Origin: Deltaproteobacteria bacterium
GTDB taxonomy: Bacteria > Desulfobacterota > BSN033 > UBA1163
Reading direction: 5' to 3'
Assembly (NCBI GenBank): GCA_037441765.1
Contig: JBBIRM010000006.1
Location: 1 to 51,824 of the forward strand
DNA length: 51,824 bases
Both the position numbers and the translations under genes were made by a program. Position 1 is the first letter of the stretch. Every line of letters starts with the position of its first letter. The notes beneath the pieces were generated by a model. That model searched no databases. It was not told the origin of the DNA and saw nothing but the letters and a program-made list of their open reading frames with translations. This document shows positions 5,903 through 20,819 of this stretch, piece after piece.

Positions 5903-5930
5903 GACCAATACCCCCTTTCTGCTCAGTTTT

Positions 5931-7508
5931 TTACCCCTTTTTTCCCATTAAATGTTTCGCCTTCCAAAAAAGGTTTGATAGGTCACAGAGCCTCCTCCCC
6001 CAGAAGGGTTTGGAGGATCGCCTCGCATTTGAATGAATGAAACAAAAGTGGTTACATCGAATCTTATGGATGGCCTTTTCAAAACCCTTCTCATCTTTTT
6101 CATCATTAAAATAATTTGGAATCCAGTATCCTAAGGAGGAGAAGGTGTTCTCCTCTCCAGAATGGTAATGGTAGAAATCCATAAAACTTCGAAGGGAAGT
6201 CTGAATACCAAATTTTTCTGTGTCAAGATACCATGGAGAGCCAGGCTCCATCTCGATGGTAAAGGTCCTTATCCCTTTCACGTTCGGGTACCTGGCACGG
6301 ATCTCCTTTTGCAATCTGATCGTCTCTTGAAGACCCTCCTCTCCTTCAAAAGGAACGCCGAGGGTAAAGAAGACATCCCCATAGACCTGATGTTCTTTCA
6401 TTTGATCAAGAGATGCCATCAAGGCTTGATTGGTATAAGCGTATCCTTTATGAATCTTTCTTACACGTTCGTCTCCCACATCCGGAGAAATGGAAATGAG
6501 TGACTTTGGTCCAGGAAAAGTTTCTTTAAAAGATCTGATAAACTCTGCAGTCGGCAATCCAAAGGATTCGAAGAAACATTCCATCTTGATCTTCTCTCTG
6601 CGAATCCGAGAAAAGAGATCGAGGTAATATTCAGGCTCTTGGGGAAAGGGATCGAAACAGATATGAAAGGTCTCATAACCATATGCAACCGCCTCTTGGA
6701 TGGACTGGAGGACCTCTTCCACTCCCCTGAAAGTGACCTCTTTTCTTCCTGTAATGGTTCTCTGAGAAGGGATATTTCCACTACACCAGGTACATTGGAC
6801 AGGGCAACCCCTGCCCACCGTGAGATGGTATATGGGGGATTTAAGAGAGAACATCCAGAAATTCTTCTCTTTAGAAACTCCTTTGACATAAAATGGCTGG
6901 CCAATGAAGCGGATGTAGATAGAGTAATTTTTTAATAATGGAAAGTTATTGAATGAAAGGTTGTTGAGATCCTTCTCCGAGGCCACATAGGAAAGGGGGT
7001 TTATGAAAACTCTTCCTTTTCTTCTCCAGGTGAGATTGGGAATAGAATAGAGGTCTTCTTTTCCAAAAAGGATGGCATTTGCCAACTCCAAAATGGGAAC
7101 CTCTGCTTCTCCTCGAATGATCCCATCTACCGTGTCAAAGTTTCGCATGATCTCTTCGTGGAAAAAACTGGCGGTGAACCCTCCTAAGAGAATGTAGATC
7201 TGGGGAAATGTAGTTTTAATCTGCTTAACCACCTCCATCACATCAAAACTCTGATGATGCCAGTGAAGATCAAGAGCAACGATCCTTGGGTTTATTTTCC
7301 GGATATAATCGATGATAGAAAATCTTGGGTCTTCGATCCATTCCAGACCAAGATGGACAACCTGGGTTGAGATTTGTTGGCGCTGGAGAAGGTCGGCCAA
7401 ACCAAGAAGTCCCATTGGTAGGAAGTTAATCCAGATGAATTGATCAATAGGCCGATAGTAGTTGTTAAATTTGGGGACGTGGAGGAACAAAAAATCCACT
7501 CTTTCCAT
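5931..7508 (-). CDS. Cobalamin-binding radical SAM protein
   Basis: N-terminal B12-binding-like domain (P.GL..LA, LGGFTAS, RGEAE..I..L) and GRGCPVQCTWC. Confidence 0.85.
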   Translation of the reverse strand: MERVDFLFLHVPKFNNYYRPIDQFIWINFLPMGLLGLADLLQRQQISTQVVHLGLEWIEDPRFSIIDYIRKINPRIVALDLHWHHQSFDVMEVVKQIKTTFPQIYILLGGFTASFFHEEIMRNFDTVDGIIRGEAEVPILELANAILFGKEDLYSIPNLTWRRKGRVFINPLSYVASEKDLNNLSFNNFPLLKNYSIYIRFIGQPFYVKGVSKEKNFWMFSLKSPIYHLTVGRGCPVQCTWCSGNIPSQRTITGRKEVTFRGVEEVLQSIQEAVAYGYETFHICFDPFPQEPEYYLDLFSRIRREKIKMECFFESFGLPTAEFIRSFKETFPGPKSLISISPDVGDERVRKIHKGYAYTNQALMASLDQMKEHQVYGDVFFTLGVPFEGEEGLQETIRLQKEIRARYPNVKGIRTFTIEMEPGSPWYLDTEKFGIQTSLRSFMDFYHYHSGEENTFSSLGYWIPNYFNDEKDEKGFEKAIHKIRCNHFCFIHSNARRSSKPFWGRRLCDLSNLFWKAKHLMGKKG

Positions 7509-7622
7509 TACCGAAATTGTAAAATGTCAATGTGAAGGATTTCAACCCCAGCCCCGATTTGCCAAGGTGCAGACTGCATAGAGAATAGCGTAATCTGTAT
7601 AATGAATAACTATCAAATGGCT

Positions 7623-9128
7623 CTACACTTTATGCAATTTTTGAAGGATGGTTCTTACAGCAAAGAGTCCAGAAAGGCTGGCCCCCACAATACTGTGAGA
7701 GGGTCTGCTGTAATGTCCGACCTGAAAGAGGCCTGGGATAGGTGTCTGATGGGGAGGCCTTGAAATTCCCATCTGCCTGGGGGTTGAGGCCAGGCCATAC
7801 ATCGCTCCCCTTTCATTTCCGGTATATCGTTCTAAGGTTAATGGAGTGGCCGCCTCATAAAAAAGAAGATGGTTACTCAGCCCTGGAAAAAGTCTCGATT
7901 CTAATTGTTTAAGCACCATCTGTGAGAATTCTTCTTTGAGATTTCGATAGGTTTCAGGATCGCCCTTACCCCACCGATCTCTATAGTGGTAAGGAGCCGT
8001 TACAATCACTTTCAGAAGGTGTTGACCTTCTGGTGCTAATGAAGGATCCAGGAGCGTTGGAATGGATAAAATCATAGTGGGGTTTTTTGGGATATCTCCC
8101 CTTCGAAGCATCCGGTCCTCTTCCTCCAGATCGGATAGAGCACGGAGATAGGTAAAATAAGGAATGCTCCCCTTCTTTAAATCTAAATCTGTTCCAAGGT
8201 AGAGAATGAAACAGGAATGAGAATATTCCCAGTCTCTCATCCTCTTTATCATAGTGTTTTTAAATTCACCAGGAAGCATTCTCATTAAATGGTTTGGGTT
8301 GATATTGGAGAGGATCAACGGGGACTGATAAAAATCTCCATCCAGAGTCTCGATCCCTTCGACCCTCCCATCCTTGATCAATATTTTACTGACTTCTTTC
8401 CGGAGAATAATCTCTCCGCCTGCATTTAAAAAGGAGTCCAAAAAGGCTTTAGAAATCCCTCCCATCCCTCCTTTCGGATAAAAGACCCCTTCCATCAAGG
8501 CCTTGCTTATCAAGATGGCAACGAATAGAAAAGAGGTTCTTGAAGGTGGTTCTGTAATGGGAAGGGTATGAAGGGCCATCTTGACTTCACCTCCCCTAAA
8601 AAGACCATTTAGAATGGTCTGGTGGGTGGTCCGATGGTAGCGAAGAAGATTTGGGCAATAGAATGGAAATAGAATACTTTTCACCAATCCCTTTTCAGAA
8701 TAATATTTTAATTCTTTGCCGATTTGTTGGACAAGTTTGAAATATCTCCTCAATCCCTTTTCCTCTTCGGGAAAGAGTTGAAGGAGACTATCTATATAAG
8801 GCTGAAACCCTCCCTGTCTTAGATGAACCTCAAAACCCGGATAGATATTCCGAATGTGATGGATTGGAATGAAGTCAACCTCATTTTGTATACCAACCTC
8901 CTTAAGGATCTCAGAAAACTCGCCACCTTCCTGGCATCCACCTATAAAGGCCCCTGTTGCATCGATGGTGAATCCATTCCTTTTAAAGGAGACTACATAG
9001 CCTCCTACCTGTTTCTCTTTTTCGAAGATAAGGACCCTAAACCCATTTCTTGCAAGAAGAGCTCCAGAAGTAAGTCCTCCCATCCCAGCACCAATGACGA
9101 GGGCATCGTATATTTTAGCCTTTGCCAT
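7623..9128 (-). CDS. Phytoene desaturase/retinol saturase-family FAD oxidoreductase
   Basis: IGAGMGG Rossmann motif, EK..VGG, YPKGG, DPSLAPEG, TPLTLERYT...GAMYG. Confidence 0.85.
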   Translation of the reverse strand: MAKAKIYDALVIGAGMGGLTSGALLARNGFRVLIFEKEKQVGGYVVSFKRNGFTIDATGAFIGGCQEGGEFSEILKEVGIQNEVDFIPIHHIRNIYPGFEVHLRQGGFQPYIDSLLQLFPEEEKGLRRYFKLVQQIGKELKYYSEKGLVKSILFPFYCPNLLRYHRTTHQTILNGLFRGGEVKMALHTLPITEPPSRTSFLFVAILISKALMEGVFYPKGGMGGISKAFLDSFLNAGGEIILRKEVSKILIKDGRVEGIETLDGDFYQSPLILSNINPNHLMRMLPGEFKNTMIKRMRDWEYSHSCFILYLGTDLDLKKGSIPYFTYLRALSDLEEEDRMLRRGDIPKNPTMILSIPTLLDPSLAPEGQHLLKVIVTAPYHYRDRWGKGDPETYRNLKEEFSQMVLKQLESRLFPGLSNHLLFYEAATPLTLERYTGNERGAMYGLASTPRQMGISRPPHQTPIPGLFQVGHYSRPSHSIVGASLSGLFAVRTILQKLHKV

Positions 9129-11628
9129 TTGTCCCTTTCAAGAGAATTAAGATTGTAGGTAGAAAAAAGAGGGCAGTGACCAGGCAGAATCCCATCCCAA
9201 ATATTGTCGCCCATCCCATTGTAGAGACGGCCTGATATCGTGCTGTGGCAAGGGAGCCGAACCCGAGCATCGTGGTTAAGGAACAAAGCACCATAGCCCT
9301 TCCCGTGGTGCGAAGGGCATTGCCTGGATCTTTTCTTCCTCCCTCCAAATATCGGTGCATCAAGTGGATACTGTTATCAATGCCCATTCCGATGATCATG
9401 GGGATGATGACTGCATTGATAAAGTTAATCTTTATCCCGAGGAGGGAAATCGTCCCGACCATCCACAAAAGACCCATGGTAAGGGGTGAAAGGATTAAAA
9501 GCGTTATCCTCCAATTTCGAAAATGGAGGGTGACAATCAAAAAAACTATAAAGAAGGCAACGGGGGTGAGAAGGTAGAGGTCTTCTCTCACAATCCTCAG
9601 GATCTCCAATTCTACCCTTTGGGGGCCTGTAATCGAAACTCCTGAAACTTCCTTCTCCAATTGGTCAAAAGATACTTCCCCTTTCCTATAATAAATATGT
9701 GAGATAAATCTGTAACTCCCATCCTTTTTAGTAACGAAAGGCTCGATCACCTTCTTAAAAGGTCCTTGTTGAAGAGAGGCAAATAGGATCTCAGGAGGGT
9801 AGAGCCTTTCATTACCTCTTCTTAATTCATCAATTCTCTGAATCACCGTTTGGAATTCACCCACCTCAAACCCATTCTCCCTTAGGGCCTTTATGAAATT
9901 CTTCTTTACTCCTTCAAGATCGATCAACTCTCGAATGGCCATGGCAACCCTTTTCTGCTTTTCGAGGGAAGGGATTAATTTTGAAAGGGAATGGTAGGAG
10001 TCGATCTTTCCTTCTCTCTGATATTTCTCCAAAACCCTGACCCATTCTTCCTCTTTCAGAAGGAGGTCTCGGAATTCTTTCCCCTCGTGAATCGAAATCC
10101 CCTCCAACTTCCTTCCTCCAAAAGCCTTTGCCATTTGATCAAAGACTTCAATGGGTGGAATATCCTTTGGCCTAAGGTTTCTGAAATCTTTTTCTACCTC
10201 AATGTCAAAGCAAAGAAGGCTGAATAAGACGGTTACCCCAATAAATCCTATAAAAATGGGGAGGGGGTGTTTTTCAATCAATGTGGAGGTATATTTGAAA
10301 CTTAAAATCTTGATGTATGAGTATGGATAGGGTTTCTTTCTTTGATCCATCAGGACAAGAAACGAAGGGAGGACGAAATAGATACAGAGGAGTGAGCATA
10401 ATAAACCGATGGCCACAAGAAAAGCCAGTTCTGTAATCCCCCTGACTCGTGAGAAGAAGAGGACGATAAAGGCGAAAATCGTTGTGAAGGCCCCCGTCCA
10501 TATTCCAGATCCAGTTTCTGTAAGGGCGATCTCAATGGCGCAGGAGATATTCTTCCCTGAAGCCCTTTCCTGGTGATATCGATCGTAGAGGTGGATAGCA
10601 AAGTCAATGCCAAGGCCTACCAGTATTGCAGCAAAAGCAATGGTTAGGATATTTAGGCTTCTCAGGGTAAGAGATGCAATTCCCATCGTTAACTGGATTC
10701 CTCCAAAGAGCGGAAGGCCAATGATAAGGAAGGTAATCCATCTTCTGAAAACATAAAAGAATAGGATTAGAACGAGGACAAGCGAGATCAAGAACGAACT
10801 CTGCATATCGAATCGGAGAACCTCTGCCTCGGCTGTAGCAATGGGATGCGCACCCGTCAGATAAATCTTTGTGGAACTTTCCTTTTGAGGCAAAATGGTT
10901 TTATCAAACTCCTCCATCAATGACTTTGAAAATCGAAGGTCAGTGGCAGGTTGGCTGGGCTCTGTGATGATGAGAAGGGATTTCTGGTCTTTGGAGAGAA
11001 AAAAGTTGCTTGTCTCATCAAATTCCATTCCCTTCATCCCTTCTTTCCATTTCTCTATGAAGAGCCATCGCAGTTCGAAGGGATCCGTTTGAATCAAGTC
11101 TTTCATCACAAAGGAGGCATGGCTAACCAGGATCTTCTTGTTTTTTTTAATTTGCCGGGATATCTCTTCCTCTGTCCATTTCTTTTTTAACTTTTCAATA
11201 TCCTCCTCGTTAAGAAAGAGATAGGGATGGGAGAGAAAGAGAGCAAATACGGGTTTGGCTTTTTCAAAATCCTCTTCCTCCACTTTTTGGAATCGGATGC
11301 TTCGAAATGCCTTCTCTCCATTTACCTCCATCCCCTTCAGTTTTTTGACAATGGTTTTACCCGAGTCGATCAACTTTTTAGGTTCGGCCCCTTCCTTATT
11401 CTCCAAAAGGATAAAGAGAAGGTCAAAGGCACCAGTCTCCTTAAGGTTCTCCATATAGAGTTTGATGGGTCCTTTTTCAGCAGGGAAAAGTTTTAGGAAG
11501 TCAGGATCAAATCTCAGCCTTCCAGTTACAAAAAAGGCCAACCCAAAGAAGATGAAAAAGATGAGAAGAACTTTTCTTTGATGATATAGACAGAGATAAG
11601 CAATCCCATGGAGCAATTGTTTTCGCAT
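9115..11628 (-). CDS. MMPL/RND-family lipid exporter (HpnN-like)
   Basis: 837 aa with two RND repeats carrying GLGIDFAIH and GMGIDNSIH. Confidence 0.9.
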   Translation of the reverse strand: MRKQLLHGIAYLCLYHQRKVLLIFFIFFGLAFFVTGRLRFDPDFLKLFPAEKGPIKLYMENLKETGAFDLLFILLENKEGAEPKKLIDSGKTIVKKLKGMEVNGEKAFRSIRFQKVEEEDFEKAKPVFALFLSHPYLFLNEEDIEKLKKKWTEEEISRQIKKNKKILVSHASFVMKDLIQTDPFELRWLFIEKWKEGMKGMEFDETSNFFLSKDQKSLLIITEPSQPATDLRFSKSLMEEFDKTILPQKESSTKIYLTGAHPIATAEAEVLRFDMQSSFLISLVLVLILFFYVFRRWITFLIIGLPLFGGIQLTMGIASLTLRSLNILTIAFAAILVGLGIDFAIHLYDRYHQERASGKNISCAIEIALTETGSGIWTGAFTTIFAFIVLFFSRVRGITELAFLVAIGLLCSLLCIYFVLPSFLVLMDQRKKPYPYSYIKILSFKYTSTLIEKHPLPIFIGFIGVTVLFSLLCFDIEVEKDFRNLRPKDIPPIEVFDQMAKAFGGRKLEGISIHEGKEFRDLLLKEEEWVRVLEKYQREGKIDSYHSLSKLIPSLEKQKRVAMAIRELIDLEGVKKNFIKALRENGFEVGEFQTVIQRIDELRRGNERLYPPEILFASLQQGPFKKVIEPFVTKKDGSYRFISHIYYRKGEVSFDQLEKEVSGVSITGPQRVELEILRIVREDLYLLTPVAFFIVFLIVTLHFRNWRITLLILSPLTMGLLWMVGTISLLGIKINFINAVIIPMIIGMGIDNSIHLMHRYLEGGRKDPGNALRTTGRAMVLCSLTTMLGFGSLATARYQAVSTMGWATIFGMGFCLVTALFFLPTILILLKGTNGKG

Positions 11629-11640
11629 AATTGAAACAGA

Positions 11641-12927
11641 TTATAACAGATTCCCCTTTCTCTTCCATGCCTTTTTAAATCCTAAATTCAAGGGGGCAAA
11701 GATCTGAAAGGAACGGTGAATTTTGGAAAGTCTTCTGAATATAGAACTCCATGATAGAAATGAGGAGTTGAGCCATTCAAAACCCTCCTGTAGCCTTTCA
11801 GGACTCATCCCTTTTGGAAGAAAGGTGACATGTTCCATATCATAGAGATCCCATTGATTTGTTAGAATTCTATTTTCTTTTCCCAGCCTTTCTCTAAGTG
11901 GGGTCCCTGGATAAGGTGTGAGAATTGGAAAGAGCGCACCATCTATCCTTGTCTGGTGGCAGAAATTGAGAATCTTTTCAAAAGACTCCGGTGTATCATG
12001 GTCATAACCTAAGATAAAAGAGGCAAAAATCCCAATCCCATTCTCATGGAACCTCTTTACTGCTTCCTGAGGAGATATTCTTAAATTTGTCTTTTTCCCC
12101 ATCAGGGTGAGGTTCTCATAGGTGAGGGATTCAAATCCAACAAATAGGGCTATACAGCCGCTTTTAGAAGCAAGGCTTAGTAACTCATCATCATTTGCAA
12201 GATCAATTGGGGCATGGCTTGCCCATTTGAATTTTAAGGATATCATCTCCTTAAATAGGGTTTTTGCATAGGAACGATTTCCAATAAGATTATCATCCAC
12301 GAGAAAGAGAAAGACGCTCTCCTTTCTCAATGCCTCCAACTCATCGATGACAAGTTGGATGGGCCTTGTCCGGTAACTTCTACCGAAGAAGGAGGAGATG
12401 GAGCAGAATTCGCATTGAAAAGGACAGCCCCGAGTTGTCTGAATTGTATTGGTAAAGAGGTAGCCTTTTCCTTTAACCAGATCCCTTCTTGGAGTTTTGA
12501 CTTCAGAAAGGGAAACGAGGCTATCGTCTTTATAAATTCTTTTTAACTTGGACTCCTTAAAATCTTTAACAACCTCTTTCCAGATAAGATCTCCTTCTCC
12601 AATGACAACAGAATCTGCGTGATCAAGGGTCTCATCAGGTAGATGGGAGACGTGGAACCCTCCAAGAACAACCTTTTTCCCTCTCCTCCTGAACCCATCG
12701 GCAATCTCATAGGCTCTTGGAGCCTGAGGGGTCATGACGGTTATTCCTACCAAATCCGCTTCGGTATCGAAATTAAGTTTTTCAATATTTTCATCAATGA
12801 TGGATACCTCAACATCCTCAGGGCTCTGTGAGGCTAAAGTAAGGAGGCTTAATGGTGGAAATTTAAATTGAATCTCCCCCCAGAGAGTTGATTGAGGCCA
12901 CCCAGGCACAATATAAACCACTTTCAT
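11641..12927 (-). CDS. Cobalamin-binding radical SAM protein
   Basis: PPLSLLTLA, VVLGGFH, IGEGD B12-domain features and TRGCPFQCEFC. Confidence 0.9.
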   Translation of the reverse strand: MKVVYIVPGWPQSTLWGEIQFKFPPLSLLTLASQSPEDVEVSIIDENIEKLNFDTEADLVGITVMTPQAPRAYEIADGFRRRGKKVVLGGFHVSHLPDETLDHADSVVIGEGDLIWKEVVKDFKESKLKRIYKDDSLVSLSEVKTPRRDLVKGKGYLFTNTIQTTRGCPFQCEFCSISSFFGRSYRTRPIQLVIDELEALRKESVFLFLVDDNLIGNRSYAKTLFKEMISLKFKWASHAPIDLANDDELLSLASKSGCIALFVGFESLTYENLTLMGKKTNLRISPQEAVKRFHENGIGIFASFILGYDHDTPESFEKILNFCHQTRIDGALFPILTPYPGTPLRERLGKENRILTNQWDLYDMEHVTFLPKGMSPERLQEGFEWLNSSFLSWSSIFRRLSKIHRSFQIFAPLNLGFKKAWKRKGNLL

Positions 12928-13442: not shown

Positions 13443-13445
13443 TTT

Positions 13446-14345: not shown

Positions 14346-15421
14346 TTTCGTTTCCTCCTTCTTTCAAGAAGATCAATAAAAGCCTCGAGGCGTGTTTCCA
14401 CCCCTCCCCTCGCTGTATGCTCATCGATGATCAGGGTAAGAATAGGAATATGGAGGTCCTTCTGGACTTTTGAAAGGATGGTCTGGGCAACCAGTTCAGG
14501 CATGCATGTGAAGGGAAAGATGTGAATGATTCCATCAATTCCTTTCTTTGCATAGAAGACGGTCTTACCCACTGATTCAATGCTTTCACCACCCGCATGG
14601 AACTGGAGGTAAGGGCGGGCAAATCTTGATGATAATTTAAATTGGTTCCTCCTGAAAGGCTTGAACCGGAAACGGTCATTAGCATAATCACTCAACCAGA
14701 CGGACTTAATCACTTCAACCCCTCTCTCGGCCAACCACATGTCAATTCCCATGTTGGCCGATGGATCTAAAACAGTGAAGAGTTCCCCAACAATGGCTAC
14801 TCGAAGAGGATGGATCCCCTTTCTCTTTCTCAACTTTCTGAACCAAAAAGAGATAGTCAAAACCGATTTAATGAGTTGGGAGAGGGAAAGACTACTTTCT
14901 ACCAGGGAGAGAGATTTTTCCAATACCTGGTCGGTCTCGCAGGGAGACAATTCATATGGTTTCGTGTGGAAATATTTTTTCATAACCCAATCTAAAATGG
15001 ACAATCTGAGGAGGATCGAAAAGAAGATCTTGTAAAGGGTTAATCTTGAGCGTGCCCCCGAGATCCTCTGCATCAGGTCGAGCATGTCCTTGAGGGCATC
15101 AGGGTTATTTGCGCTTCCCATCTTAAAAGAGTAACCCAAATCCTTCAAAATCTGTTCTTGAATCACATCATAATAGCCGAACCGGCATGGGCCCCATCCT
15201 CCAATCATAAAAATAGTATCCGCTCCTAATTCAAGGGCTTCAATCATGCTTCCAAGGGTTACTTTAAAAGGGAAACAAGCAAATTCAGGGGCATGCTTGG
15301 TTCCAAGATCGAGTGTCCTCTTAGTTGGGGTGGGAGGAAAGATGATTTCTACTCCTGCTTTTTTGAGGACAGGGCCATAGGCCTTATGAAGGTGACCAAG
15401 GTAAGGAGTTGTCATTTTCAT
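14342..15421 (-). CDS. 2-hydroxyacyl-CoA dehydratase-like Fe-S subunit (PlsR-like), copy 2
   Basis: ACFPFK, GPCRFGYY, PFTCMPE and DEHT...TRLEAF motifs. Confidence 0.8.
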   Translation of the reverse strand: MKMTTPYLGHLHKAYGPVLKKAGVEIIFPPTPTKRTLDLGTKHAPEFACFPFKVTLGSMIEALELGADTIFMIGGWGPCRFGYYDVIQEQILKDLGYSFKMGSANNPDALKDMLDLMQRISGARSRLTLYKIFFSILLRLSILDWVMKKYFHTKPYELSPCETDQVLEKSLSLVESSLSLSQLIKSVLTISFWFRKLRKRKGIHPLRVAIVGELFTVLDPSANMGIDMWLAERGVEVIKSVWLSDYANDRFRFKPFRRNQFKLSSRFARPYLQFHAGGESIESVGKTVFYAKKGIDGIIHIFPFTCMPELVAQTILSKVQKDLHIPILTLIIDEHTARGGVETRLEAFIDLLERRRKRN

Positions 15422-16389
15422 TTTTGATTTTTCCTTCTCAGAATCATCTCGAGAAAGGCCTCTATTCTTGTAGAAAACCCAACGTTCGAAAGATGTTCAT
15501 CGAAGACGATGGAAAGAGTAGAAATCTTATCTTTGACACAGTGTTGGATGAGTTCAAAATTGAAGGAATCCTGTCCGCATCCAAATGATGCAAGATTTAT
15601 GATCCCCTGAACCAGCCCACTTCTCGCAAAATGAATCGCAGAGCCTACCATCTCTTTTCCATAGGACCAATAAATTCTTTTACGGAGTGTCTCAATTCCC
15701 TTTTCAATCTCCTGGTCACTCAAGGCCTCCGGAGTGATAGGAGAATATCTACTCAACTCGATCTGTTCGACGACATATCGCCTAAGAAAAGGATCATGAA
15801 CATAATATGGCCTACCAATTACTCCTATCCTCCCTTTTCCATCTTCCAAGGGTTTTTCTATCCTATTTGAAGATCGACTTAGATGGAGGGCCTGGTCAAA
15901 AGAGAACCTATGCCTGAGGAGTAACCGGAAGCGATTCTGCCTCTCTATGGCCATCAAATAAGATGCTGACACCTTGCCCTTATCCTTTAAAAAGATATTT
16001 CCCACTTTTAGATAAAAATTCTCCTCTGCTTTGACCCCTTGTGCTTTACAGTGAATGGGGTAATCAATGAGTGGAGGAAGGGAATCAATAGAAGCCCTGA
16101 GCATGTCTGGAAGGCCCATCAACTTTGGACACATATACGCATCTGGTTCAACGCTGATGAATCGAGGGATGAAAAGATAATCAACCTTCTGCCGAATGGA
16201 TTCGACATGGCCAAAGAATATTTTAACAGGTAGGCAGAGGTCACTCGGCACAAACTTTGATCCTTCTCGAACTGTGTCCTCAGTGGTTGGATCAGAGACG
16301 ACTACTTCTATCCCCAACGTCTCAAAAAATTTCTCCCAGAGAGGAAAGTAGCGGTAGAAAAGAAGCCCACGTGGAATTCCAATCTTCAT
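15418..16389 (-). CDS. DUF2229 acyl-CoA dehydratase activase-related Fe-S subunit (PlsA reduction-domain-like), copy 2
   Basis: KIGIPRGL, CLPVK..FGH, CPKLMGLP, FGCGQD motifs. Confidence 0.8.
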   Translation of the reverse strand: MKIGIPRGLLFYRYFPLWEKFFETLGIEVVVSDPTTEDTVREGSKFVPSDLCLPVKIFFGHVESIRQKVDYLFIPRFISVEPDAYMCPKLMGLPDMLRASIDSLPPLIDYPIHCKAQGVKAEENFYLKVGNIFLKDKGKVSASYLMAIERQNRFRLLLRHRFSFDQALHLSRSSNRIEKPLEDGKGRIGVIGRPYYVHDPFLRRYVVEQIELSRYSPITPEALSDQEIEKGIETLRKRIYWSYGKEMVGSAIHFARSGLVQGIINLASFGCGQDSFNFELIQHCVKDKISTLSIVFDEHLSNVGFSTRIEAFLEMILRRKNQK

Positions 16390-17369
16390 CTCTGCGTCCT
16401 ATGAAATCTCTTTCTCCTTTCAATCGTCTCCAAAAAGGCCTCCAGTCGGGTTGTCATTCCACCTGCACCTGTGTGTTCGTCAACCATTATGCAAAGATAG
16501 AGTGTGGTTCCCCCCTCTTTTACCTTATGACTTAAGAGGGGTTCGATCATGGAGTCCACCCCGCATGAAAAACAGGTCAGATAGATGAGACCATCGATTT
16601 GACCGGAATGGAGGTAGTGAAGGCCTGCGCCAAGAATTTCTCTACCAAAGGTCCAGTAAATATCCTTTCCCAGTCTTTCAATCTCAAGATCAATTTTTTC
16701 AGGGCTGACCATCTCCTGGGTTAAAAGAATGGCCTTAGAGTCCTCAATCAACCTTAAAGCATTAAAGTTGAAAAACGGGTCATAGAGACAGTAGGGATGT
16801 CCAACTACAGCGATTTTCTTTTCCAAAACATCTTGAGAAAATCTCTCTTTTCTTCTAACGGAAATAAGTTCAGGATTGAGATCGCCTCTCCTGCTCTTTT
16901 CTCGAAATTCCTGATAGGCGTTGATTGCTTTTTTTAAGGACCCCTTAGCCTCTATTGATCTAATTCCCAATCTCTTAGCCATTTCCAAAAAAGAAGAAGA
17001 AAGGCTTGACCCCCGGTGTCGTTCATCCACATAGGGGTCTAAAATAGGAGGAAGATTTGGGATCGAATACCTGAGCATTTCTGGAAGCCCCCCGGTTCTT
17101 GGACAGAAACAGGACTTTCTCTCAAGGCTTAGAAGTCTTGGAACAAAAAGGAAATCCACTTGATCTCGAAGGGTAAGGGCATGGCCAAAAGCCATCTTGA
17201 TGGGAATGCAGTTATCATCGTCCGCATACCTGAACCCCTCCTCTACCAACTCCCGATGGCTTGGGTTTGAGACAAGCACATCAAATCCCAATTCTTTAAA
17301 GAAGGTCAGCCAGAGGGGAAAATAGCGATAGTATAGGAGAGCTCTTGGAATGCCGATTCTGATCGTCAA
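16386..17369 (-). CDS. DUF2229 acyl-CoA dehydratase activase-related Fe-S subunit, copy 1
   Basis: RIGIPRAL, CIPIK..GH, CPRTGGLP, FSCGVD, DEHTG..G..TRLEAF; TTG start overlaps the upstream TGA. Confidence 0.8.
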   Translation of the reverse strand: MTIRIGIPRALLYYRYFPLWLTFFKELGFDVLVSNPSHRELVEEGFRYADDDNCIPIKMAFGHALTLRDQVDFLFVPRLLSLERKSCFCPRTGGLPEMLRYSIPNLPPILDPYVDERHRGSSLSSSFLEMAKRLGIRSIEAKGSLKKAINAYQEFREKSRRGDLNPELISVRRKERFSQDVLEKKIAVVGHPYCLYDPFFNFNALRLIEDSKAILLTQEMVSPEKIDLEIERLGKDIYWTFGREILGAGLHYLHSGQIDGLIYLTCFSCGVDSMIEPLLSHKVKEGGTTLYLCIMVDEHTGAGGMTTRLEAFLETIERRKRFHRTQR

Positions 17370-18472
17370 GATTCTCTTCTCCCTATCTTCTTTCTTTCTC
17401 TTCGTTTCTGCAATAGGTCAACGAAGGCACCCAATCGGGTCATCACCATGGTCTCTGAGAGGTTCTCGTCGAGAGAGAAAGTCAGTATCGGGATATCATG
17501 CTCCCTGCTCACCTTGACAAGTATATTCTTTGCCACAGCCTCAAGCATACATCCGAGAGGCAGAAGTTGAATGGCTGCTTCATAGCCATCTTTTTTAAAG
17601 AGGATTGGATAACCAATGGAGGAATTACATTCTCCTCCGAGATTATATCTCAGATAGGGTTTTGATGCTTTGATTGCACTCCGTTTTGACCTTGGATGAA
17701 AAAGATCTAAGCCGAGGGCATGGCTGATCTTTTGGGTAATCCAGACCGTTCGGGTCACCTCCACTCCCATCTCGCCAAGTTTTCGCTCAATCTCCTGGTT
17801 GGCATGGGGATTAATAACCATATAGCCTTCTCCTGTGATCAGCACCTTGATAGGCCTTCTTTTGGAATCCTTCTTGATCCGGTCAAAGAGATAAACCGAC
17901 TCATCACATGCCTTCTGCAACTGCTTCAGGTTTTCAGCCTCGTCGATCAGCCTAAGACATTGGAGTTCAACCCTTGTGGTCTCCCCCCTTTCTATTTCTA
18001 AGGGTCTGACCCTGTGGGCCAAACGTTCAACCTTCTCACAGAGCCTTAGCTTCCTCCAGCCAAGGTGCAGGGCCCTTAGCGTCTTCAAGAGGGAGACGTC
18101 CCATTTCTTTCGTTCCTTGTTGAATCGTTGAACGTAATGGCTCCAGAGCCTGGTGTCATCCATCGAAATCCAGGTGAAGTTAAACCCGAGGTCCCTTAGG
18201 ATCTGCTGCATCACCACATCGTACATCCCAACCCGACATGGGCCATGATCGCTAACCATGGCAATCGTATCGGCGCCTTTCTCAAGGGCCTCGATGAAAT
18301 TCCCGAGGATGAATTTGAATGGAAGACAGGTTGAGGAAGGAGAATATTTAATCCCGAGAGAAAGAGTCCTTTGGCTGGTCTTGGGTGGAAATACAAACTC
18401 TGGACCGACCAGCCTCCCAATGGCACCGAGCATAATATTTAGGTTGCCAATATGGGGAACCGCAAGTTTCAT
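17366..18472 (-). CDS. 2-hydroxyacyl-CoA dehydratase-like Fe-S subunit (PlsR-like), copy 1
   Basis: TCLPFK, GPCRVGMY, PLGCMLE motifs; paralogous to 14342-15421. Confidence 0.8.
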   Translation of the reverse strand: MKLAVPHIGNLNIMLGAIGRLVGPEFVFPPKTSQRTLSLGIKYSPSSTCLPFKFILGNFIEALEKGADTIAMVSDHGPCRVGMYDVVMQQILRDLGFNFTWISMDDTRLWSHYVQRFNKERKKWDVSLLKTLRALHLGWRKLRLCEKVERLAHRVRPLEIERGETTRVELQCLRLIDEAENLKQLQKACDESVYLFDRIKKDSKRRPIKVLITGEGYMVINPHANQEIERKLGEMGVEVTRTVWITQKISHALGLDLFHPRSKRSAIKASKPYLRYNLGGECNSSIGYPILFKKDGYEAAIQLLPLGCMLEAVAKNILVKVSREHDIPILTFSLDENLSETMVMTRLGAFVDLLQKRRERKKIGRRES

Positions 18473-18475
18473 GGT

Positions 18476-19468
18476 TCAAAGGGAAATTCCTTTCTTTATT
18501 TCAGATTCCCATTTCCCGCACCGATCCCCCCAATAGGAGATAGGCTTCTCTTCCACAATAAATTCTACAACCTCACAATGGTTTTCACAGTCTTTACAGA
18601 TAAAATTGAGAGTTCTGCATTTTATCTCTGAAACAACAAACCCCTTGAATTGGGTTTCAGCCCCATCCATCTTTTCTTTTGTTAAAAGGGCAGCCCCGAT
18701 TGCTCCCATGACATGATAGTATTGGGGAACCAATATCTCCTCCCCTAATTCTCTTTCAAAAGCCTTCCTGATCCCTTGATTGGCAGCAACTCCTCCTTGA
18801 AAGATGATGGGGCTCCGAATCTCTTTACCCTTCGCCACATTATTGAGGTAATTCCGTACAAGGGCGTCACAGAGGCCAGCGATGATATCATTCAGATGAC
18901 AGCCCATCTGTTGTTTGTGGATCATGTCTGATTCAGCAAAGACAGTACATCGGCCAGCGATCCTTACAGGTGATTCTGATCGAAGGGCATACTCCCCAAA
19001 GGCTTCAATAGGGACATTAAGGCGCAAGGCCTGTTGGTCTAGGAATGAACCTGTCCCTGCTGCACAAACAGTATTCATTCCAAAGTCGATGACCAATCCA
19101 TCCCGGATAATAATAATCTTTGAATCCTGTCCTCCAATCTCAAGCACCGTCCTCACCTCAGGATAGAAATGGATAGAGGCTACAGCGTGGGCGGTGATTT
19201 CATTCTTCACCACATCTGCTCCAACCAGAATACCAGTCAACTGCCTTGCACTTCCTGTTGTCCCTACTCCACAAATCTCCACTCCCTCTGGCAGACGTGC
19301 TTGAATCTCCTTTAACCCTTTTTGGACTGCCAATATGGGTTGGCCATGGGTGAGAAGGTACTGGTGACAAAGGACTCTCCCCTCCTGATCGATAACTGCA
19401 AGGTCGGTGCTGACAGACCCCACATCAATCCCAAGATAGCCTTTAACCTGATGCCCTCTCTTTTCCAT
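18476..19468 (-). CDS. ATP-dependent activase (HgdC/BadFG, ASKHA family) with C-terminal Cys motif
   Basis: GIDVGSVST, EIGGQDSK, MNTVCAAGTG, RCTVFAESD and C-terminal FICKDCENHC...DRCGKW. Confidence 0.9.
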   Translation of the reverse strand: MEKRGHQVKGYLGIDVGSVSTDLAVIDQEGRVLCHQYLLTHGQPILAVQKGLKEIQARLPEGVEICGVGTTGSARQLTGILVGADVVKNEITAHAVASIHFYPEVRTVLEIGGQDSKIIIIRDGLVIDFGMNTVCAAGTGSFLDQQALRLNVPIEAFGEYALRSESPVRIAGRCTVFAESDMIHKQQMGCHLNDIIAGLCDALVRNYLNNVAKGKEIRSPIIFQGGVAANQGIRKAFERELGEEILVPQYYHVMGAIGAALLTKEKMDGAETQFKGFVVSEIKCRTLNFICKDCENHCEVVEFIVEEKPISYWGDRCGKWESEIKKGISL

Positions 19469-20819
19469 AAATATTGCGTTTTAACTTCTCCCACTCTCGA
19501 TCGGCGATGACCCCATATTCTTTAGAATATTGGTCGATAGAACTCGAAAGGTGGCTAAAGAAAATTTCAGCACCCGGGTGGGTGAAATAGACCCCTGGTT
19601 GGCTGGCCATCTCTCTTCCAATTTGTGGAACATCAATCAACATACAGGGCCTGAGAAGGTTTTGAAGATAGGGCTGACGAGAACGAATCTTTCTGAAGAA
19701 TGGGGAATCGAGCACTTCAAGAAGGGTCTTTCCTTTGATATTGTCAGATGCAAAATGGCAAAAGACGCAGGGTTCAACATCCCCTCTTGCATTGATATGA
19801 AAATACATCTTTCCCCCAGCCATGCAACCATTGGTCAGCCTCCCATCGTTCCAGAAATCGACAAAGAGAACAGGTTTGGTTGCTCGGAAATGGACAAGGG
19901 CTTGTCTCAATTGGTCTCTCTGGGCCGGGGTTGGCATCCAGCGAAGATCTGGATTCCTTCCCACCGGAATGCACATGAAATACCAGATGAGAATAAGTCC
20001 TTGATCAATTAAGAAGTCGATAAAGGAATCACTGGTGAGGATATCTGTATTCTGCCGGGTTTGGGTTAGGGAACATGCAAAAAGGATTTTCGCCGCTCGT
20101 AGGAGTTCCATCCCCTTCATCAATTTCTTAAAATGTCCTTTACCCCTTCTCAGGTCTGTTTCCTCCTCGTAGCCTTCCATACTGATTGCAGGAGAGACAT
20201 TTCCGAGAGATGCCATTGTCTCCACAGTCTTCTCATCAAGAAGGCCTCCATGAGTAAAGACGTGGAAAAGCATACGAGGGTGCTCCCTGTAAATCTCAAT
20301 AAGATCTTCCCTCAGAAATGGTTCTCCTCCAAGGACGACCACCAGATGAATTCCCATCTCCTCAGCCTCTCTGAGAACCCGGTTGATCTCCTCTTTTTCT
20401 AATTCTTTTTCCTTCGAATAACTTCCTGCATAACAACCGTAACAGTTGAGATTACATCTCATCGTGGGACTGATAAGCATAGCCCGTGGAGGATAGTATC
20501 CTGTGCGGGCTTCAAATGCCCTTCTTCGATTGGTCCCCTCTAAGAATTGGTCGATTAAAAAGTGAACGATTCTTTGGCGTTGTTTCGGATTGGCCTCTTT
20601 GATGACCCTTCGGGCAATGTCAAGTGAAGGATGACCTTGCTTGAATAGTTCTCGAATCCAGCCGATCTTCACACGATAGGAATCCTTTTGAGGGATCTTT
20701 TCAGCGAGATAGGTTAGACGGATGAGATTCGCCTTAGAACTATTGGATAGGAGTGATAGGCCAATGGTTGTAAATTTGATTAAGGAGATTCTCTTCAAGT
20801 GAAAGATAGGATTTGCCAT
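19443..20819 (-). CDS. Radical SAM protein with SPASM/twitch domain
   Basis: SPTMRCNLNCYGC; GCMAGG..YFHINARGDVEPC; PC near the C-terminus. Confidence 0.9.
   Translation of the reverse strand: MANPIFHLKRISLIKFTTIGLSLLSNSSKANLIRLTYLAEKIPQKDSYRVKIGWIRELFKQGHPSLDIARRVIKEANPKQRQRIVHFLIDQFLEGTNRRRAFEARTGYYPPRAMLISPTMRCNLNCYGCYAGSYSKEKELEKEEINRVLREAEEMGIHLVVVLGGEPFLREDLIEIYREHPRMLFHVFTHGGLLDEKTVETMASLGNVSPAISMEGYEEETDLRRGKGHFKKLMKGMELLRAAKILFACSLTQTRQNTDILTSDSFIDFLIDQGLILIWYFMCIPVGRNPDLRWMPTPAQRDQLRQALVHFRATKPVLFVDFWNDGRLTNGCMAGGKMYFHINARGDVEPCVFCHFASDNIKGKTLLEVLDSPFFRKIRSRQPYLQNLLRPCMLIDVPQIGREMASQPGVYFTHPGAEIFFSHLSSSIDQYSKEYGVIADREWEKLKRNIYGKERASG

What the first reader, a model, noticed from the sequence alone, without database searches (positions are those of the whole stretch)
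5931..20819. Candidate undescribed biosynthetic operon for an ether / membrane-spanning, radical-modified lipid
Seen: 11 minus-strand genes from 20819 to 7623 are joined by overlaps (five 4-bp ATGA/TTGA overlaps) or gaps of at most 12 bp, and a second B12-radical SAM gene follows 114 bp later. The operon combines a SPASM radical SAM, an ATP-driven activase, four HgdAB-like Fe-S subunits, an LpxL-type acyltransferase, an SRPBCC protein, a B12-radical SAM, an MMPL exporter and a CrtI/RetSat-like flavoprotein. Known: activase plus DUF2229 plus dehydratase-like domains make up anaerobic plasmalogen synthase (PlsA/PlsR) and glycerol ester reductase (Ger). B12-radical SAM enzymes methylate or cyclise lipid chains, and MMPL proteins export lipids. 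Inference: a complete acylate, reduce to ether, cross-link/methylate and export line for a special lipid (dialkyl ether, diabolic-acid or brGDGT-like, or an ether glycolipid). I know of no described cluster with this full combination.
Basis: partly seen in the sequence, partly recalled or inferred. Interest (0 to 1): 0.88.

Follow-up and report, generated by a model that had tools for sequence, protein, structure and literature searches.

The report
Split PlsA/Ger-like lipid-tailoring operon
An uncultured anaerobic bacterium carries a tightly packed, conserved and so far undescribed operon that joins two split copies of the enzyme type that turns lipid ester bonds into ether bonds with radical SAM enzymes, an acyltransferase and a lipid exporter; its product is unknown.

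Summary
Eleven minus-strand genes (20819-7623) are joined by five 4-bp overlaps, two longer overlaps and gaps of at most 12 bp. A second B12-radical SAM gene follows after 114 bp. All domain calls hold.

The Fe-S module is PlsA/Ger-like, not HgdAB-like. One activase (B) plus two small/large pairs (D/C, E/F) are collinear with the genome's own fused 1395-aa Act-Act-Red1-Red2 protein.

The gene set is co-conserved in related MAGs but rare: 10 of 41 relatives and 9 of 401 genomes of the phylum.

It is a mosaic. J-K-L also occurs alone in relatives. The C/D and E/F pairs belong to different old clades. More distant relatives and a second cluster in the same genome sit inside FASII/LolA/B12-rSAM "ladderane-type" lipid clusters.

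Cross-linking is not supported: rSAM A resembles SkfB/SuiB/anSME, not the tetraether synthase. No squalene or hopene genes were found.

Best reading: an accessory lipid acylation, ester-reduction, tailoring and export operon. The product is unknown and no paper describing it was found.

The parts
19443..20819 (-). A: radical SAM enzyme with one auxiliary-cluster (twitch / partial SPASM) domain and a ~105-aa helical N-terminal extension
   Evidence: Pfam Radical_SAM 80 bits and SPASM 26.9 bits, above the 21.5 cut-off. CX3CX2C at residues 122-129. Seven Cys invariant in 19 homologues: 122, 126, 129, 332, 351, 354, 392. Model pLDDT 87.6; nearest folds SkfB, SuiB, anSME, PqqE. No NCBIfam cut-off reached.
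18476..19468 (-). B: ATP-dependent activase (HgdC/BcrAD type), the only one in the operon
   Evidence: PF01869 at 166 bits. TIGR00241 at 189.2 bits, above the 125.4 cut-off. 49-51% identical to each of the two activation domains of the genome's own fused 1395-aa protein.
17366..18472 (-). C: PlsA 'Red2'-type large subunit, C-clade
   Evidence: DUF2229 at 40.8 bits, above 29.4. Aligns to residues 1000-1390 of the fused protein. Three invariant Cys (49, 79, 308) in 73 of 73 homologues. Groups with the own C13 large subunit, support 99*.
16386..17369 (-). D: PlsA 'Red1'-type small subunit, partner of C
   Evidence: DUF2229 at 161.7 bits. Aligns to 671-981 of the fused protein. Cys 54, 89, 269 invariant in 68 of 68. 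Own clade of 7 loci, support 100.
15418..16389 (-). E: PlsA 'Red1'-type small subunit, partner of F
   Evidence: DUF2229 at 152.5 bits. Aligns to 670-984 of the fused protein. Cys 52, 87, 271 invariant. Fused to the F-type subunit as one ~740-aa ORF in 7 distant loci.
14342..15421 (-). F: PlsA 'Red2'-type large subunit, F-clade
   Evidence: DUF2229 at 42.2 bits. Aligns to 1000-1391 of the fused protein. Cys 49, 79, 306 invariant. Model pLDDT 85.3. All Foldseek hits with E below 1e-3 are DCCP, 2-hydroxyisocaproyl-CoA dehydratase or class I benzoyl-CoA reductase subunits.
13446..14345 (-). G: LpxL/PatA-family acyltransferase
   Evidence: PF03279 at 136.6 bits. Best NCBIfam match is PIM acyltransferase at 128.5 bits, below the 209 cut-off. 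Nearest solved structures are PatA (1.2e-22) and LpxM (2.9e-7). An H-x4-E motif lies at 122-127.
12924..13442 (-). H: probable SRPBCC/START-like lipid-binding protein
   Evidence: PF10604, E 1.7e-5, 25.6 bits, just under the 27.4 cut-off. Conserved with the cluster: in 6 of 10 near loci and 9 of 35 distant loci.
11641..12927 (-). I: B12-binding radical SAM enzyme 1
   Evidence: B12-binding plus Radical_SAM. CX3CX2C at 168-175. Best NCBIfam matches are BchE, HpnR and TIGR04072 (82.8 against a 360 cut-off), all below cut-off.
9115..11628 (-). J: MMPL / HAE3-type RND transporter (HpnN-like)
   Evidence: PF03176 at 148.6 bits plus a sterol-sensing domain. HAE3 223.6 against 351.9 and HpnN 216.5 against 751.9, both below cut-off. 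Travels with K-L in G022, G009 and G024.
7623..9128 (-). K: CrtI / carotenoid-isomerase-like flavoprotein
   Evidence: Amino_oxidase plus NAD_binding_8. crtI_fam 147.9 against a 238 cut-off. Full-length match to CrtI 4dgk and to 4rep. GxGxxG at residue 13.
5931..7508 (-). L: B12-binding radical SAM enzyme 2, after a 114-bp gap
   Evidence: B12-binding plus Radical_SAM. TIGR04190 at 202.9 against a 500 cut-off. Orthologues in 27 of 41 relatives, next to K in all 7 fetched loci.
5117..5908 (-). M: MBL-fold metal-dependent hydrolase, 22 bp after L; membership of the operon is uncertain
   Evidence: NF001911 at 286 bits, above the 144 cut-off. Follows L in G003, G019 and G022. A 70% paralogue lies on contig C3.
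20892..21491 (-). HEAT-repeat protein 72 bp upstream of A; probably not part of the unit
   Evidence: HEAT_2. Found upstream of A only in G005; in the other relatives DUF2207 directly precedes A.

Best explanation
This is an accessory operon for tailoring and exporting a lipid. It was assembled from two modules.

Module 1 (A-I). Inferred steps:
- A PatA/LpxL-type acyltransferase (G) puts an acyl chain on a lipid or glycolipid acceptor.
- One ATP-driven activase (B, acting as a homodimer) feeds low-potential electrons to two different PlsA/Ger-like Fe-S heterodimers (D+C and E+F).
- By analogy with PlsA and Ger, these reduce lipid ester carbonyls through ketyl-radical chemistry to alk-1-enyl or alkyl ethers.
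- The twitch-type radical SAM enzyme A is an obligate helper of this reductase type. Its reaction is unknown.
- The B12-radical SAM enzyme I modifies the unactivated chain, most likely by C-methylation.
- H carries the hydrophobic intermediate.

Module 2 (J-K-L, perhaps M). This is a more widespread trio that also occurs on its own. An MMPL transporter exports the lipid from the inner membrane. A CrtI-like flavoenzyme and a second B12-radical SAM enzyme tailor alkyl chains (desaturation, saturation or hydration, plus methylation).

Shown here: gene order, domains, collinearity with a fused Act-Act-Red1-Red2 protein, the conserved Cys triads, the fold, co-conservation and the mosaic history. 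Inferred: every chemical step, the substrate and the product.
For: 1. Tight packing and conserved order in related MAGs.
2. B, D/E and C/F map in order onto the genome's own 1395-aa protein: Act 5-270, Act 318-633, small-type 670-985, large-type 1000-1391. This PF01869 x2 plus PF09989 layout is the one described for the validated Ger enzymes (passages of PMC13159169) and as Act1/Act2/Red1/Red2 for PlsA (passages of PMC12838417).
3. Three Cys are invariant in 73 of 73 large and 68 of 68 small subunits and align with the fused protein.
4. The model of F matches only the ATP-dependent radical-enzyme superfamily.
5. E and F occur fused as one ~740-aa ORF in 7 loci.
6. A-family rSAMs (56-86% identity) lie directly beside a PlsA-like large subunit in at least 12 relatives' second-type loci, and inside the cluster in 6 more (compare). 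The own genome repeats the set SPASM-rSAM + large + small + activase + B12-rSAM + LpxL-AT on contig C13.
7. In 35 distant F-clade loci the partners are lipid genes: B12-rSAM 20, LolA-like 17, SAM-MT 15, SPASM-rSAM 13, SDR 13, KS 12, MMPL 11, LpxL-AT 9, SRPBCC 9, MCAT-like 8.
8. The own C13 cluster and locus L043 each hold a true TIGR04072 'lipid biosynthesis B12/rSAM' member (401.6 and 370.9 bits, cut-off 360).
9. No SQS_PSY or squalene-hopene cyclase match in the 94%-complete genome, so J and K are not hopanoid or carotenoid genes.
Against: - No chemistry was tested.
- C-F are only 25-28% identical to the genome's own fused Ger-like protein. They could not be compared with the validated PlsA or Ger sequences.
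- The genome already has that fused protein for ordinary ether lipids.
- The window cluster has no ACP, KS or glycerolipid gene, so the acceptor and acyl donor are unknown.
- The nearest solved relatives of A are peptide-modifying enzymes.
- Modules 1 and 2 have different distributions (10, 18 and 27 of 41 relatives), and G009 keeps them on different contigs. A shared product is therefore not assured.
- In Firmicutes-type loci the same split module lies among sporulation genes with no lipid partners.
- All F-clade carriers found are MAGs, so no lipid data can be linked.
- Several domain hits are below curated cut-offs (H; all equivalog models).
Confidence: 0.5

Rival explanations
1. The lipid context is the same, but the PlsA-like pairs do not make ethers. 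As in other members of the ATP-dependent radical-enzyme superfamily, they would carry out a difficult reduction or dehydration on the acyl chain itself. The substrate could be a hydroxyacyl, conjugated or cyclic intermediate of a 'ladderane-type' special fatty-acid pathway. The product would be an ester-linked lipid with an unusual chain, attached by G and exported by J.
For: - The superfamily catalyses dehydration, dearomatisation and small-molecule reduction, and F's fold matches all of these about equally (TM 0.5-0.59).
- Distant relatives and the own C13 cluster sit inside KS/SDR/MCAT/thioesterase/B12-rSAM clusters that include TIGR04072 members.
- No FabZ-type dehydratase appeared among the frequent partners annotated.
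- Identity to the fused Ger-like protein is low, 25-28%.
Against: - DUF2229 is so far tied experimentally only to PlsA and Ger (passages of PMC13159169).
- The window operon has no chain-building genes.
- The full Act/Red1/Red2 collinearity with the fused protein is met.
- The anammox cluster lists I read do not mention an activase or hydroxyglutaryl-type gene (0 occurrences in PMC2649909 and PMC4790861).
Confidence: 0.25
2. These are two unrelated functions that merely became neighbours. A-I is one system (lipid ester reduction). J-K-L-M is a separate, vertically inherited lipid-tailoring and export trio with its own substrate. The close spacing reflects an insertion next to J, not a shared pathway.
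For: - L is in 27 of 41, K in 18 of 41 and the F orthologue in 10 of 41 relatives.
- K-L or J-K-L stands alone in G014, G006, G012, G021, G022, G024 and G009.
- G009 has A-H and J-K-L on different contigs.
- G005 has A-I without J-L adjacent.
- A promoter-like site lies in the K/L gap, though the scan overall found no more sites than in shuffled sequence.
Against: - The I/J gap is 12 bp and J/K overlap by 14 bp.
- The joined order recurs in G019, G010, G001, G034 and G036, and the minimal B-E-F variant of G003 also lies beside J-K-L-M.
- Distant F-clade clusters carry their own MMPL in 11 of 35 loci, so an RND exporter fits module 1.
Confidence: 0.15
3. The operon matures a peptide or lipopeptide (RiPP-like). 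The SPASM/twitch rSAM and the B12-rSAMs would modify a peptide, which is then acylated and exported.
For: - The nearest solved relatives of A are the RiPP maturases SkfB and SuiB.
- I and L give weak hits to RiPP rSAM models such as ApyD.
- An ATP-grasp and a peptidase occur in distant clusters.
Against: - The intergenic gaps of 72 bp or less (one of 114 bp) leave no room for a precursor ORF.
- All RiPP models score far below cut-off.
- The partners are lipid-type genes.
- The N-terminal domain of A is all-helical in the model. I recall RRE domains as winged-helix folds; this was not tested.
Confidence: 0.04
4. The operon encodes catabolic ATP-dependent reductase or dehydratase activity (benzoyl-CoA reductase or 2-hydroxyacyl-CoA dehydratase type), used in syntrophic degradation of aromatics or amino acids.
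For: - One activase plus four Fe-S subunits loosely recalls BcrABCD.
- The fold matches Bzd/Mbd reductase and HadBC subunits.
- The related MAGs carry syntroph-type labels.
Against: - The Bcr NCBIfam models score far below cut-off for B (108 against 578), and C-F give no NCBIfam hit at all.
- HGD-D matches only the last 60-75 residues, and below cut-off.
- There are no CoA ligase, CoA transferase or ring-pathway genes around; the neighbours are an acyltransferase, MMPL, rSAMs and haem genes.
Confidence: 0.03

Closest known systems
Anaerobic plasmalogen synthase PlsA/PlsR and glycerol ester reductase Ger
   Same: - An HgdC-type activation domain plus DUF2229 'reduction' units.
- The order Act / Red1 / Red2 is collinear with the genome's own fused 1395-aa protein.
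- Conserved Cys triads in both subunit types.
- An anaerobe host and a lipid gene context.
   Different: - Split into separate genes, with a single activase serving two non-orthologous small/large pairs. The validated Ger enzymes are single polypeptides with two activation domains (passages of PMC13159169).
- Only 25-28% identity to the fused paralogue.
- Always accompanied here by a twitch-type rSAM, a B12-rSAM and an acyltransferase.
- Activity is untested.
- The AEM 2026 paper notes extra PlsA homologues without an activation domain whose role is unclear (passages of PMC13274423). Its Table S7 could not be seen.
'Ladderane-type' FASII / radical SAM lipid clusters (TIGR04072 class; K. stuttgartiensis kuste3335-3352 and the syntenic Desulfotalea cluster)
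   Same: - B12-radical SAM enzymes plus a phytoene-desaturase-like flavoprotein in a lipid context.
- The own C13 cluster and distant F-clade clusters add KS pairs, SDR, MCAT-like, GT2, a polysaccharide-deacetylase-like gene and a true TIGR04072 member. Passages of PMC2649909, PMC4790861 and PMC13459092 were read.
   Different: - The window operon has no KS, ACP, FabZ or TIGR04072 member: I scores 82.8 and L 40.7 against a cut-off of 360.
- The anammox gene lists I read mention no activase or PlsA-like genes.
- The product of such clusters outside anammox bacteria is itself unknown.
2-hydroxyacyl-CoA dehydratases (HgdAB/HadBC), class I benzoyl-CoA reductases and the double-cubane cluster protein DCCP
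   Same: - Superfamily fold of F (TM 0.5-0.59, E 6e-8 to 1e-4).
- Dependence on an ATP-driven activase.
- The profile of F homologues touches DCCP and HadC only at the C-terminus.
   Different: - No full-length sequence match: HGD-D covers the last 60-75 residues and stays below cut-off, and E has no PDB hit.
- No CoA-substrate pathway genes nearby.
Hopanoid genes HpnN, HpnR, HpnH and HpnE
   Same: J, I, A and K give their partial NCBIfam hits to these models.
   Different: All scores are far below cut-off. No squalene/phytoene synthase or squalene-hopene cyclase match was found in the 94%-complete genome.
Tetraether synthase Tes (GDGT-MAS) and bacterial Mss
   Same: These are radical SAM enzymes that act on lipids.
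   Different: A gives no phmmer hit to GDGT-MAS. In the fold search GDGT-MAS is only at ranks 49-50 (TMq 0.38-0.39), behind SkfB, SuiB, anSME, MoaA, PqqE and viperin. No Mss sequence was available for comparison.

Membership tests
PlsA/PlsR-Ger ether-lipid synthases | BcrAD/HgdC-type activation domain (PF01869) | tested here: met
   B: PF01869 at 166 bits; TIGR00241 at 189.2 bits, above the 125.4 cut-off.
PlsA/PlsR-Ger ether-lipid synthases | DUF2229 (PF09989) reduction domain(s), arranged as Red1 then Red2 | tested here: met
   C 40.8, D 161.7, E 152.5 and F 42.2 bits against a 29.4 cut-off. D/E align to 670-985 and C/F to 1000-1391 of the own fused Act-Act-Red1-Red2 protein.
PlsA/PlsR-Ger ether-lipid synthases | Two activation domains in one polypeptide with the reductase part (the layout of the validated Ger enzymes) | tested here: not met
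   Six separate genes with one activase. The fused form exists elsewhere in the genome, on contig C51.
PlsA/PlsR-Ger ether-lipid synthases | Groups with validated PlsA (C. perfringens) or Ger (T. maritima, D. alkenivorans) in a phylogeny | not tested
   Those sequences could not be obtained with the tools. Only the genome's own fused paralogue served as outgroup.
PlsA/PlsR-Ger ether-lipid synthases | Converts a glycerolipid ester into an alk-1-enyl or alkyl ether under anoxic conditions | not testable with these tools
   Needs anaerobic expression and GC-MS or LC-MS.
2-hydroxyacyl-CoA dehydratase (HgdAB/HadBC) | Full-length HGD-D (PF06050) match above cut-off | tested here: not met
   Only profile positions ~269-342 of 342 match, at 21-27 bits against a 28.4 cut-off. 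There are no NCBIfam hits for C-F.
ATP-dependent radical enzyme superfamily (HAD/BCR/DCCP) | Catalytic-subunit fold, with Cys ligands for an Fe-S cluster | tested here: met
   In the Foldseek list for the F model, ranks 1-13 (E up to 1.1e-4) are DCCP, HadC and Mbd/Bzd reductase subunits. Three Cys per subunit are invariant.
Class I benzoyl-CoA reductase | Bcr/Bzd subunit equivalog models reached | tested here: not met
   B: 108 against 578, 76 against 380 and 58 against 313. C-F: no hit.
'Ladderane-type' lipid cluster (TIGR04072 class) | A TIGR04072 B12/rSAM member in the cluster | tested here: not met
   I 82.8 and L 40.7 bits against a 360 cut-off. The feature is met in the own C13 cluster (401.6) and in L043 (370.9).
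'Ladderane-type' lipid cluster (TIGR04072 class) | Dedicated FASII genes (KS pair, ACP, KR and others) in the cluster | tested here: not met
   None among the 13 window genes. They are present on C13 and in distant F-clade loci.
Tes/Mss membrane-spanning lipid synthases | Specific sequence or fold likeness to GDGT-MAS | tested here: not met
   No phmmer hit at E up to 0.001. Foldseek ranks 49-50, TMq 0.38-0.39.
SPASM radical SAM enzymes | CX3CX2C motif plus the full seven-Cys SPASM motif for two auxiliary clusters | tested here: inconclusive
   CX3CX2C is present, and the SPASM Pfam hit is above cut-off. Only four further Cys are invariant (332, 351, 354, 392), which is enough for one auxiliary cluster (twitch-like). 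The seven-Cys rule is recalled, not taken from a call.
LpxL/PatA acyltransferases (PF03279) | Family domain and the catalytic His motif | tested here: met
   PF03279 at 136.6 bits against a 22.3 cut-off. An H-x4-E motif at 122-127. PatA is the nearest solved structure. No equivalog cut-off is reached, so the substrate is open.
Hopanoid or carotenoid pathway | Squalene/phytoene synthase and squalene-hopene cyclase in the genome; HpnN or CrtI equivalog scores reached | tested here: not met
   PF00494 and PF13243 give 0 matches in the own genome (94% complete). HpnN scores 216 against 752 and crtI_fam 148 against 238.

The most novel reading that the evidence does not exclude
The two non-orthologous PlsA/Ger-like heterodimers, driven by one activase and helped by a dedicated twitch-type radical SAM enzyme, each reduce a different ester position of a lipid built by the PatA/LpxL-type acyltransferase. 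The operon would then make fully ether-linked, B12-rSAM-methylated lipids (dialkyl ether or branched-ether type) that the MMPL exports to the envelope. This would be a previously unrecognised anaerobic route to non-isoprenoid di- or poly-ether biomarker lipids in uncultured Thermodesulfobacteriota and Nitrospirota. It would also give the first function for the 'orphan' PlsA homologues that lack an activation domain.
Probability: 0.12. Interest if true: 0.85.

Novelty: new variant of a known kind. Interest (0 to 1): 0.62.

Why it matters
Bacterial ether lipids and branched tetraethers are widely used as environmental and palaeoclimate markers. Their anaerobic producers, and the enzymes for steps beyond the first ether bond, are still debated (passages of PMC13159169 and PMC13274423).

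This operon shows that the PlsA/Ger enzyme type also exists as split heterodimers, embedded in dedicated clusters for lipid tailoring and export in uncultured sediment and subsurface anaerobes. A radical SAM partner always accompanies them.

If ether formation is confirmed, this would:
- widen the list of possible sources of ether-lipid biomarkers;
- give a role to the orphan PlsA homologues;
- tie the long-unexplained 'ladderane-type' lipid clusters of Desulfobacterota and Nitrospirota to a testable chemistry.

If the pairs do something else, they would be a new reaction class for the ATP-dependent radical enzyme superfamily acting on lipids.

Tried and rejected
- **Carotenoid or hopanoid reading of J, K, I:** rejected. 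No SQS_PSY or SHC match in the own genome, and all Hpn and Crt models are below cut-off.
- **Tes/Mss-like cross-linker reading of A:** not supported.
- **HgdABC or benzoyl-CoA reductase reading:** rejected.
- **PDB sequence searches:** L, I and E gave nothing informative.
- **ESM Atlas for L:** returned only generic B12-rSAM clusters.
- **Public runs:** no RNA holder listed, only three small-share DNA rows from one study. Read laying was therefore not used, and nothing is concluded about expression or habitat.
- **Promoter and terminator scan:** not above shuffles.
- **Literature searches that found no description of the cluster:** (0 papers). Supplements are closed. Table S21 of PMC13159169 and Table S7 of PMC13274423 may list split PlsA homologues that I could not see.
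- **Complex prediction:** not used. The E-F pairing rests on the gene fusion seen in 7 loci and on collinearity.
- **Trees:** FastTree only. The tool flagged several long branches, and the place of the own C13 small subunit is unresolved. Large ORFs over 460 aa (the fused E-F forms) and small ORFs outside 280-420 aa were left out of the trees.
- **Truncated loci:** many loci are cut by contig ends, so partner counts are lower bounds.
- **Sampling bias:** the loci were chosen through F, so they cannot show how often the partners occur without F.

Full report
**Observation.** Eleven minus-strand genes, A to K (20819 to 7623), are joined by five 4-bp overlaps (TTGA, ATGA, ATGA, TTGA, ATGA), two longer overlaps (A/B 26 bp, J/K 14 bp) and gaps of 3, 3 and 12 bp. 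L follows after 114 bp, and an MBL-fold hydrolase M after a further 22 bp.

Only B (TIGR00241) and M (NF001911) reach a curated NCBIfam cut-off. All the other genes belong to unnamed subfamilies. The flanks are housekeeping or unrelated genes: LemA, DUF2207 and a HEAT-repeat protein upstream; an adenylate cyclase downstream; pepA, hemE, hemH and a hemY-like gene further on.

**Whose genome.** The window is contig C6 of a 2.97-Mb, 278-contig, 94%-complete assembly. The nearest public records with the cluster are MAGs labelled Syntrophorhabdus sp., Syntrophaceae, Syntrophobacterales or Thermodesulfobacteriota.

**The Fe-S module is PlsA/Ger-like.** C-F all carry DUF2229 above cut-off. They match only the last 60-75 positions of the HGD-D model, and below cut-off.

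The same genome encodes a fused 1395-aa protein on contig C51 with two BcrAD domains and DUF2229. B aligns to both of its activation domains at 49-51% identity. D and E align to residues 670-985, and C and F to residues 1000-1391, at 25-28% identity. That layout is the one given for the experimentally validated Ger enzymes (passages of PMC13159169) and for PlsA as Act1/Act2/Red1/Red2 (passages of PMC12838417).

Each subunit type keeps three invariant Cys, in 73 of 73 large and 68 of 68 small sequences, aligned with the fused protein. An AlphaFold model of F (pLDDT 85.3) matches only DCCP, 2-hydroxyisocaproyl-CoA dehydratase and class I benzoyl-CoA reductase subunits at E below 1e-3. E and F are fused into one ~740-aa ORF in seven distant loci, which supports E/F being a functional pair.

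A tree with the validated enzymes could not be made.

**Co-conservation and rarity.** An F orthologue (62% identity or more) occurs in 10 of 41 close relatives, counting the window's genome. It occurs in 9 of 401 evenly sampled genomes of the phylum, in 5 of 255 genera.

Around these orthologues the order is kept:
- A to M in G019.
- A to L in G010, with C broken and an insertion between I and J.
- A to J or A to K up to contig ends in G036 and G034.
- E to K in G001, cut at both contig ends.
- HEAT plus A to I in G005.
- A to H in G009.
- Only B, E, F, then three opposite-strand genes, then J-K-L-M in G003. The three genes are a 5'-nucleotidase-like gene, a YegS/DAG-kinase-like lipid kinase and an MFS transporter.

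**Mosaic origin.**
- L orthologues are in 27 of 41 relatives and K orthologues in 18 of 41.
- In seven fetched loci K-L (G014, G006, G012, G021) or J-K-L (G022, G009, G024) stands without any PlsA-like gene beside it. It often lies next to the same cyclase N or hydrolase M as in the window. J-K-L(-M) is thus an older local module, and A-I is a variable block next to it.
- FastTree trees rooted on the fused protein's halves put F in one clade with Nitrospirota and 'delta' MAG sequences.
- C falls in another clade, together with the large subunit of a second cluster of the same genome (support 99*). D and E also fall in separate clades. The two pairs are therefore old paralogues brought together, not a recent duplication.

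**The wider family.**
- The own contig C13 carries, in one run: KS (divergent), polysaccharide deacetylase/DUF3473, GT2, SPASM-rSAM (59% identical to A), large subunit, small subunit, activase, B12-rSAM, LpxL-type acyltransferase, MCAT-like, 4HBT thioesterase, three more B12-rSAMs and an SDR. One of these B12-rSAMs is a true TIGR04072 'lipid biosynthesis B12-binding/radical SAM' member, at 401.6 bits against a 360 cut-off.
- In 35 loci whose F homologue is 43-54% identical (Nitrospirota and 'delta' MAGs), the frequent partners are B12-rSAM (20), LolA-like (17), SAM methyltransferase (15), SPASM-rSAM (13), SDR (13), KS (12), MMPL (11), ATP-grasp (10), LpxL-AT (9), SRPBCC (9), MCAT-like (8) and CsgG-NHL (8). 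Locus L043 again has a TIGR04072 member.
- These are the 'ladderane-type' FASII/rSAM clusters, first noted for their synteny between an anammox bacterium and a deltaproteobacterium (passages of PMC2649909; section 5 of the review PMC13459092). The anammox gene lists I read do not mention activase or PlsA-like genes.
- By contrast, in 35 Firmicutes-type loci (F about 40% identical) only the activase and one pair are shared. They lie among spoVA, sigF, gerA and lysA-type genes.

**The radical SAM partner.** A is very conserved: 57% identity or more to the 16 family members aligned (51-52% to two more distant sequences), including its N-terminal helical extension. A-family genes lie directly beside a PlsA-like large subunit in at least 12 relatives' C13-type loci, and within the cluster in six more (compare coordinates). 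A has the CX3CX2C motif plus only four further invariant Cys. Its model (pLDDT 87.6) is nearest SkfB, SuiB, anSME and PqqE, and GDGT-MAS ranks only 49-50. A Tes/Mss-like cross-linking role is therefore not supported. A tight functional tie to the PlsA-like reductase is.

**Other parts.**
- G is nearer to the PIM acyltransferase PatA than to LpxM among solved structures.
- K is a full-length relative of CrtI. No squalene/phytoene synthase or hopene cyclase match was found in the genome, so K and J probably act on non-isoprenoid chains.
- A phytoene-desaturase-family enzyme that hydrates archaeal lipids is cited in a 2025 preprint (passages of 10.1101/2025.10.20.683597). This shows how wide the chemistry of this family is.
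- CrtI-like plus B12-rSAM pairs recur: K-L in the window, and a second pair on own contig C100 and beside LemA in G009.

**Most likely working.** The acyltransferase G makes a lipid ester. B, as an ATP-driven electron injector, serves both D/C and E/F. These reduce ester carbonyls to ethers as PlsA and Ger do. A and I carry out radical chain chemistry, H carries the intermediate, J exports it, and K and L add further tailoring. Only the anatomy, homology, co-conservation and history are shown; all the chemistry is inferred. I give this reading 0.5.

The main rival (0.25) keeps the lipid context but has the pairs act on the acyl chain rather than on the ester bond. A further 0.15 goes to A-I and J-L being functionally separate neighbours.

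**Novelty.** No paper describing this combination was found. The AEM 2026 paper states that extra PlsA homologues lacking an activation domain have an unclear role. Both parent kinds are known: PlsA/Ger, and the ladderane-type lipid clusters. I therefore rate it a new variant of a known kind, of real interest but with the product unknown and no cultured carrier found.

Noticed in passing
own genome contig C13:7296-24226 (locus L107): A second, larger lipid cluster in the same genome. It holds a divergent KS, polysaccharide deacetylase/DUF3473, GT2, SPASM-rSAM (59% identical to A), a PlsA-like large and small subunit, an activase, a B12-rSAM, an LpxL-type acyltransferase, an MCAT-like gene, a 4HBT thioesterase, three more B12-rSAMs (one a true TIGR04072 member, 401.6 against 360) and an SDR.
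   Followed up: partly
loci L072-L106 (Firmicutes-type records, e.g. L073, L074, L082, L088): In spore-forming Firmicutes the split module (activase plus small and large subunits, about 40% identical to F) lies among sporulation genes: spoVAD/AE, a sigma-F-like sigma factor, an anti-sigma kinase, GerA and a lysA-type decarboxylase. It has no lipid partners there, and its role is unknown.
   Followed up: partly
own contig C100:5993-9355; G009:C436 14461-17829 (L018): A second pair of a CrtI-like gene (about 30% identical to K) and a B12-rSAM (47-48% identical to I) recurs, like K-L. This suggests that these two enzyme types work together.
   Followed up: no
L039, L042, L047, L051, L052, L059, L062: In 'delta' MAG loci the small and large PlsA-like subunits are fused into one ~740-aa ORF. 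It sits in a very conserved cluster with LolA-like, LpxL-AT, B12-rSAM, SRPBCC, SAM-MT, MMPL, CsgG-NHL, SPASM-rSAM, ATP-grasp and SDR genes.
   Followed up: partly
own contig C17:22508-28964: A third A-like radical SAM gene (43% identical) lies about 4 kb from another LpxL-type acyltransferase (30% identical). A-like genes of this 41-47% class occur in most relatives, including families without the split module.
   Followed up: no
window 2515-3399: A 294-aa ORF consists only of a Type ISP restriction-enzyme C-terminal specificity domain. It may be a gene fragment.
   Followed up: no
G010:C50 5073-6118 and G010:C20 2072-3175; G033:C1 475-481 kb: Some relatives carry decayed copies. C is split in two in G010, an A-like gene there has two in-frame TGA codons, and G033 has truncated B and F.
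   Followed up: no
L019 7317-11417 (G003): In the minimal B-E-F variant, a 5'-nucleotidase-like phosphoesterase, a YegS/DAG-kinase-like lipid kinase and an MFS transporter lie on the opposite strand between F and J.
   Followed up: no
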